Positions 1-3,000 of a stretch of DNA of 22,049 bases are shown here, in pieces. Position numbers: made by a program. This stretch comes from a virus (Duplodnaviria; Heunggongvirae; Uroviricota; Caudoviricetes), in the IMG/VR virus record IMGVR_UViG_3300048620_000004; one strand, written 5' to 3'. Numbering within the stretch: the first letter of the stretch is position 1; each line of letters opens with the position of its first letter.

Positions 1-3000
1 ATCGCGAGCACCTCTTCCGGTTTGGTTGATGGTGCCATTTTAGTTAAATTATCCTTATAAAACAAACAGATAAAATAAAAACATCACTCATCATCTTCTG
101 TTTCGTACTCCACATCAGAAAGCCTGACCTCAAGCTCCAGGGACGTCGTGAAGCCGCTATTATTCAGAAAATGTGTCACCTTAGTGATTGTCCAGTCCTG
201 CTCGTCTATGACGCGCTTAAAGCCTGACACTTTAACCGGTGTTTCCGTGTAAATATCAGCACGACCGGTAGCCAGACTGATGGAGAACTCCGCAACGCCC
301 CGTTGCAGCTTATCCCACTTCGCCTGAGCGGCGCGCATGGCCTGCGCTTTCGTGGCATATACCGTGGTCAGGGCAAAAACGTTGTCAGCCTCACCGGCCA
401 TGTATTCACCTTCACGCGCTTCCGGTACTTTAGGCGCTTTCTTCTGCCTGACCGGTTTCGCGTTCGGGTGCTCCAGTGCGCGCAGGTGTTTCTCTTTCTT
501 TTTGCGTTTCAGTTTTACCTTCTGCTTTTGCGGTTTCGGGTCTTTGGTGTGTAACCACTTTGCCGTTACGCCTGTATCGTCGCGCTGGTAAGAGCCTGCA
601 AAACGAATCGGCACGGCATCCACACCGGTTGCGGCGTAAAGCTCCCAGATAACCGAATCCGGGAATCCACCGAGCGACCACTCCATTGACAGCGCATCGT
701 CATCAAGGCCGAGGTCTACCGGTGCGCTGCCGTTCATCCCCGCACCGCGATAGTTTTCGAGCTTACGGGTCAGTTTTGGCAGCGTGACGGACTTTGCAAC
801 GCCCTGATAGCTGTAGCCGTTCAGAAAGACGTTCATTAACTTGAGTTTGCGCGGCATTGCCATCGGTCAGGCTCCTTAATTGCTGTTAACCGAGGTAACC
901 AGACTTGCCAGGTATCTGGAAGTAATACGCTGGCGCAGGGTCAGGTTTTCGAGAGGAGGCACCGGGGTATAGTCGTAGTCGATATACAGTTTTCCGGCCT
1001 TGAGGGTTTCCGCATCATTGGCTTCTTCACTGAACCAGCATGTGCCATCCACGATATAACCGTTGTTTTTCAGTTCGCGGAATTTGGCATTAATGCCATC
1101 AATGATGTCACGAATCAGCGTTGCGGTAATTGGCTTATCAATAGCCCACATGTGCGCCTCGGCCATCGTGTCGGCCAGTACCTGCGCGGTGCGGGTGTAG
1201 CTTTCAAAGAGGAACAGCGGGTCATCAGAGCAGGTACGGTTACCCCAGAAGCGGAAGCCGTCGCGGCGAATCAGCGTAGTGATGCCTGACTCGTTAAGCA
1301 GGTCAGCATCAGTGCCGGACTTCTGCAAATCCCAGAATACAGAGGCGCTGATGCCGGTAACACCATTTACCCCGACGTTGGACAGCGTTTTATGCCAGCC
1401 CTGCTCCTGGTCGATTTTGGCACGCAGCCCCAGCGCACGGGCGGTGGCATACGCGGTGGCAGTGGTACTGGTAACCGTATCCCATGCGAGGAAATCCGGC
1501 CAGATGACCATCAGCTCACGCTGGCTGAAATTCTGACGGTAGGCTTTTGCCTCGGAAATGGTTTTACAGCCCCATGCGCTGATATACCCGAATGCATTCA
1601 GTTCCTGGCATACCGATGCCAGTGCGACGGCAACCTCTTTGGTGTCCAGCCCCGGCACACCAAGAATGCGCGGTTTAACGCCGGTAACCGACTCAGCCCC
1701 CATCAGGGCTTTCAGTCCGGTGTACTGACCGTTTTCGTCAGTGGTGCCGATGATATTGGAAACGGTCTGCGCGAGTTTCGTTTCCTCGTCGTCGCCGGTG
1801 CCGTCTTCCACACGCACGACAACAGTGACCGGTTTTGACTGGTCGGCGATAGCCTGCAACGACGCCGCCAGCGTGCCTTTTTTACCGGCCTTTGCAATTG
1901 CGCTCTGTACATTGGTAATCAGCACCGGTTTATTGACGGGGAAGGTTTCCGCATCCGCATCGCTGGCCGTGCAGACCATGCCGACAATGGCCGTGGATAC
2001 GGTGGAAATGACGCGGGTGCCGTCGTTAATCTCCAGCACCTGCACGCCGTGATGATAGTCACTCATCCGTTTAACTCCGTGGTTAATGGGTGCAACTATT
2101 TTCTGTTGTGCGAAGCATGAGACGCTATTTGACCTGGCTGGGCAGTGGATGAAACAACAGATAAAGAAAAAGTGGGCAACTTGCCCGCCTCTATTTATTG
2201 CGGTATACCCAGCCATTCAGGATTTGTTGCTACTCATAATTACCTGCAAAGAAACAAAGAAAAGATGAAAATACAAGCTGTCTGGTACAAAGAAATCCAT
2301 CAGACTTCCAACACCCCATACATGTGCCCCCACCACGGTATGCTGCTCCGCTTCCCTTTGCGGATATTTTCTATCCATCGATTTTCAGCCAGGATATGCA
2401 CGTGCGCGATGAAGAATGTCACACTACTATTGCCTTGTAAGCCCAGTTCCCGGTAAGAATAGCAACCAGCATCTGCGCTGCTACAGCACAAAGCGAGTGT
2501 ATATTTGGGGGGAATATCCTTCATAAACTGTTCGACGAAACCACGCTGTGGTTTCTCTTGTTATCAAACCGAGTGGCATTATCACTAGTTTTACTAAATT
2601 ACCAACTTCACTGTGAATGATATGCATGATAGAATCAGAAAATTAAATTATACAGATCTTAATCAATTCCGCGTTTTATGCCCGTTGCTTCCACGGGCTT
2701 TTTTTAAAAAATCACCTAAAATAAATAATTATATTCACTTTTATTCTAATACAGAATAGAATATGAAATCGTCAATTTGTACCATTAATTTTCAAATCTT
2801 CCCCGCCTTCGAGAGAATGCGGGGCTTTTTACATGAGTACAACTTCACATTAACTATTTTTATACTTATAATTTGCTTTGCTTAAAAATGTTCAAAATGT
2901 ACGCCAACATATTTAATTATGCTGATTTTATCACCAACAAAACTATCACCATGCAAACAATCCCTCGTGTTAGTTATACTGCAATGCATTGCAGCATGAT

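What the first reader, a model, noticed from the sequence alone, without database searches (positions are those of the whole stretch)
84..863. In-frame fusion of tail tube (FII) N-terminus to a gpD-like C-terminus: deletion of the E/E'/T/U tape-measure module
Seen in sequence: one 259-aa ORF whose N-terminal part resembles the P2 tail tube and whose C-terminal part resembles the end of gpD-family proteins, joined by a lysine-rich low-complexity linker, with no tail chaperone, tape measure or U genes in the window. Inference: a roughly 5-kb internal deletion, possibly by microhomology, left an open fusion frame. Together with the missing head module and missing G this makes the prophage non-inducible as a virion, yet its immunity, replication and cargo genes look intact, so it may be kept for the cargo.
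Basis: inference. Interest (0 to 1): 0.45.

Follow-up and report, generated by a model that had tools for sequence, protein, structure and literature searches.

The report
Tail tube–hub fusion: deletion scar
This 259-residue open reading frame is the scar of a 4,321-base deletion in the long-known defective P2-like prophage of laboratory E. coli B, which joined the front of the tail-tube gene to the back of the baseplate-hub gene; it is ordinary, but its hub-side breakpoint is a site where many other P2-like prophages have broken independently.

Summary
ORF 84-863 (-) encodes FII (tail tube) residues 1-~97 joined in frame to gpD residues 225-387.

The window is the defective P2-like prophage of E. 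coli B (REL606 lineage) between yegQ and yegR. A 99.9%-identical intact prophage at the same site in strain Z0117EC0062 carries FII-E-E'-T-U-D. Against it, exactly 4,321 bp are missing. The crossover lies in a shared ATAC (window 574-577) inside a 13/15 imperfect repeat.

- The lysine-rich stretch is native gpD (residues ~233-275), not a linker.
- Gene G is also absent from the intact relative, and the H fibre carries its own chaperone domain.
- A second 8.26-kb deletion (Q'..'S) removed the head and lysis genes.

RefSeq already annotates both halves as pseudogene fragments, and BL21(DE3) lost the whole element by precise excision. The finding is therefore a known, ordinary decay scar.

One thing is unexpected. 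About 30 independent X::gpD fusions in public data pile their gpD-side breakpoints on three TA dinucleotides (D134, D225, D233). These are the only TAs in D nt 1-750 that sit in the loop of a perfect 4-5-bp hairpin. The cause is unexplained.

The parts
84..863 (-). Fused ORF FII'::'D, 259 aa, with the native FII ribosome-binding site (GGAG) upstream
574..863 (-). FII (tail tube) part: codons 1 to ~97 of 172. Identity to the intact FII runs to ORF nt 290
   Evidence: Pfam PF04985 positions 1-95/165
574..577 (-). Crossover interval ATAC (ORF nt 287-290), shared by FII and D. It corresponds to FII nt 287-290 and D nt 671-674 of the intact relative
563..577 (-). 15-nt imperfect direct repeat used for the deletion: FII ATACCGGCGAAACGG versus D ATACAGGCGTAACGG (13/15, same codon phase, both encoding Thr-Gly)
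84..577 (-). gpD (baseplate hub) part: codons 225-387 plus stop, 163/163 identical to the intact relative's gpD
414..551 (-). Lysine-rich stretch (HTKDPKPQKQKVKLKRKKKEK...PEAREGE). It is native gpD residues ~233-278, not a junction linker
   Evidence: present in P2 gpD and in the sister gpD
876..2066 (-). FI tail sheath gene, intact. Same RefSeq protein accession as in the intact sister prophage
2067..2230 (-). Region upstream of FI corresponding to the P2 late promoter PF. Identical to the sister over the stretch aligned (the sister's 210 nt) and partly conserved with P2
1..83 (-). D-ogrK intergenic region and the first two bases of ogrK. The gene continues beyond the window start
11103..11109 (.). 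Second deletion junction of the same element: portal Q' joined to 'S. 8,260 bp (P, O, N, M, L, X, holin, endolysin, lysA/B/C, R) are lost. Microhomology GGGAA(A)G

Best explanation
The ORF is a non-functional deletion scar in the defective P2-like prophage that sits between yegQ and yegR in E. coli B.

In an ancestor essentially identical to the intact prophage now seen at the same site in strain Z0117EC0062, one illegitimate recombination event joined FII nt ~290 to D nt ~671. The joint formed across a short imperfect direct repeat, ATAC[C/A]GGCG[A/T]AACGG, with the crossover in ATAC. The event removed 4,321 bp: the last 75 codons of FII, all of E, E', T and U, and the first 224 codons of D.

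Both copies of the repeat lie in the same codon phase (Thr-Gly), so the product is in frame by accident. The fused gene keeps the FII ribosome-binding site and lies in the F operon behind an intact FI and PF region, with ogrK downstream. It could therefore be expressed if late transcription were ever switched on. It has only about 57% of a tube protein and about 42% of a hub protein and cannot build a tail.

Shown: the breakpoint, the size, the homology, the lineage restriction, and the absence of E/T/U.
Inferred: the direction of the event (a deletion from an intact ancestor), the mechanism class (slippage or end-joining at short homology), and the lack of function.
For: Identity of the locus: 100% match to REL606 and other B-lineage genomes. 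PGAP annotates the tube protein as 'missing C-terminus' and the D family protein as 'missing N-terminus'.

Intact comparator at the same chromosomal site, with FII-E-E'-T-U-D-ogrK. Identity across the flanking blocks is 99.9% (2 mismatches in 2,783 bp) on the FI/FII side and 99.5% (3 in 577 bp) on the D side.

Protein breakpoints.

DNA breakpoint: FII-side identity ends at ORF nt 290 and D-side identity starts at nt 287. The deletion is 4,321 bp.

The repeat is one of only two FIIxD sites with >=13/15 identity among 580,750 window pairs.

The junction is present in only 11 of 5,426 complete E. coli genomes. All 11 carry this same element at >=99.9% identity, and most are named B, B derivatives, ATCC 11303 or REL606.

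A second short-homology deletion in the same element shows the same decay process.
Against: No expression or phenotype data exist, so 'non-functional' is an inference.

The D-side breakpoint coincides with a site used by at least 3 other deletions confirmed at DNA level, and 3 more inferred from protein sequences. The position may therefore have been set by something more specific than chance short homology.

The ancestor is inferred from a present-day relative and was not observed.
Confidence: 0.9

Rival explanations
1. The deletion was not a chance slip at short homology. It was started by a site-preferential break or template switch at a small DNA hairpin in gene D, GCCT(ATAC)AGGC, whose loop holds the crossover. 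The left partner (FII) was then chosen by microhomology. This refines the best explanation rather than replacing it.
For: About 30 different X::gpD fusions or N-terminally truncated gpD ORFs appear in public data, with left partners FII, FI, V, J, I, H, G, U, T, E, L and cargo genes. Their D-side endpoints cluster as follows:
- about 12 at D232/233;
- about 7 at D222-225;
- about 6 at D134/135.

DNA-level junctions always share a TA.

Of the 23 TA sites in D nt 1-750, only three lie in the loop of a perfect >=4-bp hairpin, and these are exactly the three hot sites. That gives 1/1771, post hoc.

The same left sites (V ..ACGGTA|, FI ..TCGGTA|) were used with two different D sites in prophages that differ by SNPs next to the junction.

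A simulation of 32 events spread over 23 sites never gave 12 at one site.
Against: The hairpins are short (4-5 bp), and 11% of all TA sites in the late region have one. Folding energies of the regions are not exceptional, with z between -0.9 and -1.8. The criterion was defined after seeing the data.

The census covers only the best 120 hits of one search and sees only fusions that start before about D residue 250.

Left-partner sites have only 2-3-bp stems. No enzyme or pathway has been identified.
Confidence: 0.4
2. CRISPR-Cas type I-E self-targeting of gene D made the breaks. Each hot site lies 6 nt downstream of an interference-proficient PAM (GAG, GAG, AAG). Cas3 degrades one way, towards and past the PAM, which would give fixed right ends and variable leftward deletions.
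For: PAM-like trinucleotides lie at the same distance from all three hot sites (sequence). The deletion pattern is one-sided. Cas3 polarity is from my own knowledge.
Against: No CRISPR array in 5,426 complete E. coli genomes carries a spacer matching any of the three protospacers in that register.

The one-sidedness also has a trivial explanation, since only ogr and attR lie downstream of D.

Cas3 deletions are not known to have nucleotide-exact ends (own knowledge).
Confidence: 0.04
3. The fusion protein is kept because it works, for example as a dominant-negative fragment that poisons tail assembly of superinfecting P2-like phages.
For: The frame is open, the RBS and operon context are intact, and FI, the PF region and ogrK are retained. 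gpD C-terminal fragments are retained in many remnants.
Against: The in-frame state follows from the repeat's codon phase.

Other remnants have the same D fragment out of frame or behind junk ORFs (MB06022; P0028, P0033, P0052-54). BL21(DE3) lost the whole element without known cost.

Historically P2 grows in E. coli B (own knowledge). The element is 99.9% identical to the intact relative, so there has been no time for selection to be visible.
Confidence: 0.04
4. The 259-aa protein is a natural single-domain family member, or the fusion is an assembly error.
For: None found.
Against: There is a sharp switch from 98% identity with FII to 100% identity with gpD within 4 nt. The only full-length match in a 5.8-billion-protein database is the identical sequence (P0001). 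Eleven independent complete assemblies agree.
Confidence: 0.01

Closest known systems
Defective P2-related prophage of Escherichia coli B
   Same: It is this very element: 100% identity to REL606, ATCC 11303 and other B strains, located between yegQ and yegR. From my own knowledge, not checked here: it is the source of the P2 Hy dis hybrid (Cohen 1959) and is described in the 2009 REL606/BL21(DE3) genome papers.
   Different: Nothing differs. I could not retrieve the genome papers to check whether the FII::D joint itself was described. RefSeq annotates the two halves as separate pseudogene fragments rather than as one open frame.
Intact P2-like prophage at the same site in E. coli Z0117EC0062 (NZ_CP098197.1) and about 8 similar genomes
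   Same: Same integration site and same gene order. FI, V, W, I and the 261-aa cargo ORF have identical protein accessions. Structural blocks are 99.6-99.9% identical.
   Different: It has the 4,321 bp (FII 3' end-E-E'-T-U-D 5' end) and the 8,260 bp (Q 5' end..S 5' end) that B lacks. Its C/cox immunity region differs. Its cargo at the A/Q hot spot is DUF7380 instead of ABC-3C.
Bacteriophage P2 (NC_001895) F operon: FI FII E E' T U D ogr
   Same: Same operon order. FII 1-98 is identical. gpD 225-387 differs by one residue. The K-rich stretch is present in P2 gpD.
   Different: P2 has G and Z/fun between H and FI. This lineage has a longer self-chaperoned H, a phase-variable-looking glycosyltransferase, and no G.
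E. coli K-12 cryptic prophage PR-X (yegZ-ogrK)
   Same: A P2 remnant at the same yegQ/yegR site that also keeps a gpD C-terminal fragment plus ogrK.
   Different: It is far more decayed (629 bp). Its D fragment starts near D nt 952-958, not 671.
Other X::gpD deletion fusions in P2-like remnants, for example MB06022 FII49::D225, the widespread H::D222 remnant at yegQ, V::D134, V::D233, FI::D134, FI::D233, T::D225 and U::D225
   Same: All have the same architecture: the N-terminal part of a late gene fused to a gpD C-terminal part followed by ogr. The T::D, U::D and MB06022 junctions use the same TA at D nt 672-673 as the B junction.
   Different: They have different left partners, different host lineages and att sites, and mostly shorter microhomology (2-5 nt) than in B.

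Membership tests
Phage tail tube protein FII (Pfam PF04985) | Complete tube-protein domain (profile about 165 positions; P2 FII is 172 aa) | tested here: not met
   Only profile positions 1-95 are present. Identity to intact FII stops at residue ~97.
Phage late control D / baseplate hub (Pfam PF05954) | Complete GPD domain (profile 305 positions; P2 gpD is 387 aa) scoring above the gathering cut-off | tested here: not met
   Only profile positions 214-304 match, at 27.7 bits against a cut-off of 30.1. Only gpD residues 225-387 are present.
P2-like (Peduovirus-type) prophage | P2 gene order (int-C-cox-B-A ... Q ... V W J I H ... FI FII ... D ogr) and high nucleotide identity to P2-group phages | tested here: met
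   Annotation of the whole element. FI-FII is 93-96.5% identical to Peduovirus genomes. Alignment to P2.
P2-like (Peduovirus-type) prophage | Integration by P2-type Int at a site sharing the P2 att core, AAAAAATAAGCCCGTGTAAGGGAGATT (core sequence from my own knowledge) | tested here: met
   The core is present at both ends in REL606 and as a single copy at the empty site in BL21(DE3).
Defective (cryptic) prophage | Loss of genes essential for virion production | tested here: met
   E, E', T and U are absent, and FII and D are truncated. P, O, N, M, L, X, holin, endolysin, lysA/B/C and R are absent, and Q and S are truncated.
Defective (cryptic) prophage | No particles or plaques produced | not testable with these tools
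   This needs a wet-lab test. It is inferred from the gene content.
Short-homology (microhomology) illegitimate deletion | One copy of a short direct repeat is left at the joint, and the sequence on each side is collinear with the intact relative | tested here: met
   ATAC within a 13/15 repeat. The flanks are collinear with the sister.
CRISPR-Cas3 self-targeting deletion | A matching spacer exists in the species' arrays | tested here: not met
   No array hit for the three candidate protospacers in 5,426 genomes.

The most novel reading that the evidence does not exclude
P2-like prophages decay through deletions whose gpD-side ends are not random. They fall on three TA dinucleotides exposed in the loops of small hairpins: GAGGC(GATA)GCCTC, GCCT(ATAC)AGGC and TGGT(TACAC)ACCA. 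They are joined to a limited set of GNTA sites in upstream late genes. The E. coli B FII::D joint is one instance. If so, a structure- or enzyme-directed breakage or template-switch process shapes prophage domestication and repeatedly leaves the same gpD C-terminal fragment next to ogr.
Probability: 0.35. Interest if true: 0.55.

Novelty: already known. Interest (0 to 1): 0.25.

Why it matters
The finding itself has mostly bookkeeping value. It gives the exact anatomy of the two deletions that cripple the P2-like prophage of a major laboratory strain (REL606 and the long-term evolution lines). It also shows that one RefSeq 'pair of pseudogenes' is really a single open 259-codon frame that could be expressed from the late promoter.

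The recurrent breakpoints would matter more if real. They would show that prophage decay follows preferred molecular paths. They would also offer a simple assayable system, P2 lysogens, for studying illegitimate recombination hot spots in E. coli.

Tried and rejected
1. Natural single-domain protein or assembly error: rejected.

2. E/T/U elsewhere in the element: none between yegR and yegQ. REL606 has no second FI/FII/D copy.

3. Pseudo-origin nicking by the P2 A protein as the cause of the recurrent breakpoints: the P2 ori nick context GCGCCTC^GGAGTCC bears no resemblance to the GNTA sites.

4. CRISPR I-E self-targeting: no matching spacers.

5. Reciprocal search for gpD N-terminal::X fusions, to see whether the D sites break in both directions: none among the best 120 hits. 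This is uninformative because only ogr and attR lie downstream.

6. Census of truncated D genes in complete genomes by spread sampling: it showed mainly intact, B-type (from nt 671) and K-12-type (from nt 952-958) copies. It was too coarse to count the rarer classes.

7. The repeat finder on the FII..D interval: too many weak repeats to be informative.

8. Literature: I could not retrieve the 2009 REL606/BL21 genome papers or any paper on the B prophage structure or on gpD deletion hot spots.

9. I first called the junction repeat 14/16. Recounting gives 13/15.

10. Restriction-site, invertase quasi-site, integron secondary-site, IS-target and Chi explanations for the GNTA motif were considered by eye only. 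None fitted all sites.

Full report
WHAT IS THERE

The window carries an ATG-initiated 259-codon ORF at 84..863 on the minus strand. Pfam places residues 4-100 on positions 1-95 of the 165-position tail-tube model PF04985 (E 4.3e-26). It places residues 144-236 on positions 214-304 of the 305-position Phage_GPD model PF05954, at 27.7 bits, just under the cut-off. PHROGs gives the same two-part picture.

WHERE IT COMES FROM

The first 2.3 kb and the whole 22-kb window match E. coli B-lineage chromosomes at 99.9-100%: REL606, ATCC 11303, 'B', AS19 and drug-selected B derivatives. In REL606 the element lies between yegR and yegQ. RefSeq annotates:
- int, C, cox, B and A;
- an ABC-three-component defence system;
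- a portal fragment and a virion-morphogenesis fragment;
- V, W, J, I and H;
- a glycosyltransferase;
- FI;
- then 'tail tube protein, missing C-terminus', 'late control D family protein, missing N-terminus', and ogrK.

This is the classical defective P2-related prophage of E. coli B (my own knowledge; I could not retrieve the primary papers).

THE BREAKPOINT

An intact P2-like prophage sits at the same chromosomal site in strain Z0117EC0062. It has FI-FII-E-E'-T-U-D-ogrK and a complete head and lysis module. A whole-element comparison shows the B element equals this relative with four differences:
- two segments are missing;
- the C/cox immunity region is different;
- the cargo between A and Q is different;
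- the shared structural blocks are 99.6-99.9% identical.

At protein level, ORF residues 1-101 are 99/101 identical to FII 1-101, and residues 97-259 are 163/163 identical to gpD 225-387.

At DNA level:
- Identity with FII runs to ORF nt 290.
- Identity with D starts at nt 287.
- The crossover therefore lies in ATAC, window 574-577.
- Exactly 4,321 bp are absent.
- The ATAC lies in a 15-nt imperfect direct repeat, ATACCGGCGAAACGG in FII and ATACAGGCGTAACGG in D (13/15).
- This is one of only two FIIxD sites that similar among 580,750 window pairs.
- Both copies are in the same codon phase (Thr-Gly), which is why the product is in frame.

The lysine-rich stretch that looked like a linker is native gpD. 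It is present in P2 gpD and in the sister gpD, and it begins eight codons after the joint.

- No E, E', T or U gene exists anywhere in the element. REL606 has no second FI/FII/D copy.
- The head module is missing through a second discrete deletion of 8,260 bp. It runs from inside Q to inside S and also removed the holin, endolysin, lysA/B/C and R. Its microhomology is GGGAA(A)G, at window ~11103-11109.
- 'Missing G' is not decay. The intact relative has no G either. The 952-aa H fibre carries a C-terminal Peptidase_S74 intramolecular chaperone domain.
- FI is intact. The region upstream of FI is identical to the sister over the stretch aligned, and it aligns with the P2 PF promoter region. ogrK follows, so the fusion could be transcribed with the late operon.
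- BL21(DE3) has an empty yegQ-yegR site that keeps one copy of the P2 att core. The element can therefore excise precisely and is dispensable in the laboratory.
- The junction occurs in 11 of 5,426 complete E. coli genomes, all carrying this same element.
- Because the flanks are almost identical to the intact relative, both deletions are evolutionarily recent.

MECHANISM

The best-supported reading is a single short-homology illegitimate recombination event (replication slippage or end joining) that left a non-functional scar. Confidence is about 0.9 for 'deletion scar'. The exact pathway is inferred, not shown.

AN UNEXPECTED PATTERN

Searching 5.8 billion proteins with the fusion returned the identical protein. 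It also returned many other chimeras in which the N-terminal part of a different P2 late protein is fused to a C-terminal part of gpD. The partners were FII, FI, V, J, I, H, G, U, T, E, L and an ASCH cargo protein. Some gpD fragments lay behind junk ORFs.

Among roughly 32 distinguishable events, the gpD-side ends cluster:
- about 12 at residue 232/233 (|HTKDPK);
- about 7 at 222-225 (|TGVTAKW, which includes the B joint);
- about 6 at 134/135 (|ASRNRLE).

Contigs confirm that these are real remnants next to ogr and host genes, at several att sites and in complete genomes.

DNA-level junctions:

| Fusion | Source | Junction |
|---|---|---|
| FI::D233 | L010 | GAGTCGGTA\|CACACC |
| FI::D134 | L011 | GAGTCGGTA\|GCCTCC |
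| V::D233 | L013 | CTCACGGTA\|CACACC |
| V::D134 | L014 | CTTACGGTA\|GCCTCC |
| ASCH::D233 | L016 | CCCGGATA\|CACACC |
| T::D225 | L021 | CAGCTTA\|CCGGCG |
| U::D225 | L022 | GGCGATA\|CCGGCG |
| FII49::D225 | MB06022 | CACCGGTA\|CCGGCG |

Every joint shares a TA, usually preceded by G-N. The same V and FI sites were used with two different D sites in prophages that differ by SNPs beside the joint, so these events are independent.

A simulation of 32 events over the 23 TA sites of D nt 1-750 never placed 12 on one site. Of those 23 TA sites, only three lie in the loop of a perfect >=4-bp hairpin:
- GAGGC(GATA)GCCTC;
- GCCT(ATAC)AGGC;
- TGGT(TACAC)ACCA.

These are exactly the three hot sites, which gives 1/1771. 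The background rate of such hairpins is 11% of TA sites.

This is post hoc, the stems are short, and the census is partial, so I treat it as an unexplained lead. Two specific causes were tested and not supported:
- P2 A-protein pseudo-nick sites;
- CRISPR I-E self-targeting.

The one-sidedness of the fusions is trivially explained, because only ogr and attR lie downstream of D.

COMPARISON WITH THE KNOWN

The ORF fails membership of both the FII and gpD families as a complete protein. It is a pseudogene chimera. The element is a member of the P2-like prophages and is defective.

The closest known things are:
- the element itself, as already sequenced and annotated;
- its intact sister prophage;
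- phage P2;
- the smaller K-12 remnant PR-X (yegZ-ogrK) at the same site.

VERDICT

The finding is an ordinary, already annotated decay scar in a famous laboratory strain, so its interest is low. The recurrence of its gpD-side breakpoint across many independent remnants is the only surprising element, and it deserves a proper census and an experimental test.

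Noticed in passing
window 3263-3389 (with ORFs 3109-3420 + and 3392-4510 +): There is a perfect (CAGC)x31.8 tetranucleotide repeat inside a small ORF. That ORF overlaps, out of frame, the start of a family-2 glycosyltransferase in the cargo slot between H and FI. The element's length differs between B-lineage assemblies by multiples of 4 bp (-94 to +56). The roughly 96-bp offset from REL606 maps to this stretch. This looks like a hypervariable, phase-variable prophage glycosyltransferase.
   Followed up: partly
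gpD gene of P2-like prophages; window 574-577 and loci L010, L011, L013, L014, L016, L019, L021, L022, L008: About 30 independent X::gpD deletion fusions have gpD-side ends piled on three TA dinucleotides (D nt 402, 673, 696). Each lies in the loop of a 4-5-bp hairpin. Left partners are often GNTA sites that are themselves reused. The cause is unknown.
   Followed up: partly
window ~11103-11109: A second deletion joins a 3' fragment of portal gene Q to a 3' fragment of S. It removed 8,260 bp, covering the terminase, scaffold, capsid, head completion, X, holin, endolysin, lysA/B/C and R. Microhomology is GGGAA(A)G.
   Followed up: yes
window 4722-7580 (-): The tail fibre H is 952 aa and has a C-terminal Peptidase_S74 intramolecular chaperone domain (aa 780-842). 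Neither this element nor its intact relative has a G tail-fibre assembly gene.
   Followed up: yes
window 12177-15866 (-): The cargo at the A/Q hot spot is an ABC-three-component (ABC-3C) system. It comprises an alpha/beta-hydrolase effector with CTD8, middle component MC4, and a 656-aa ATPase. The intact relative carries a DUF7380 protein there instead.
   Followed up: partly
L005 25951-26280 (BL21(DE3) yegQ-yegR) versus L001: BL21(DE3) lacks the whole element. The empty site keeps one copy of the P2 att core, so the loss was a precise site-specific excision.
   Followed up: yes
L008 (E. coli MB06022, Galapagos seawater), 6709-14265: This is a more decayed P2 remnant at the same yegQ/yegR site. 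It has int, C, cox' fused to 'G, two hypothetical genes, FI, FII(1-49) joined out of frame to gpD from the same TA as in B, and ogrK. The joint forms the palindrome CCGGTACCGG. A 204-aa protein (P0004) looks like the same joint after a further 23-nt loss that restores the frame.
   Followed up: partly
L018-L020 (yegQ locus in many E. coli): A widespread remnant, indexed in 197 blocks of the collection, has portal-J-I-H(1-269)::gpD(222-387)-ogr. In one genome it is further cut by an IS3-family insertion.
   Followed up: partly
window ~20245-20557: The C/cox immunity region does not align with the intact sister prophage, although int and the early genes are 96-97% identical. The two elements are therefore presumably heteroimmune.
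   Followed up: no
proteins P0063, P0066: Some gpD genes carry a frameshift in the A-rich lysine-coding tract. This gives ORFs that start at the GTG in AAGTGGTTAC and rejoin the gpD frame, so the A-runs appear indel-prone.
   Followed up: no
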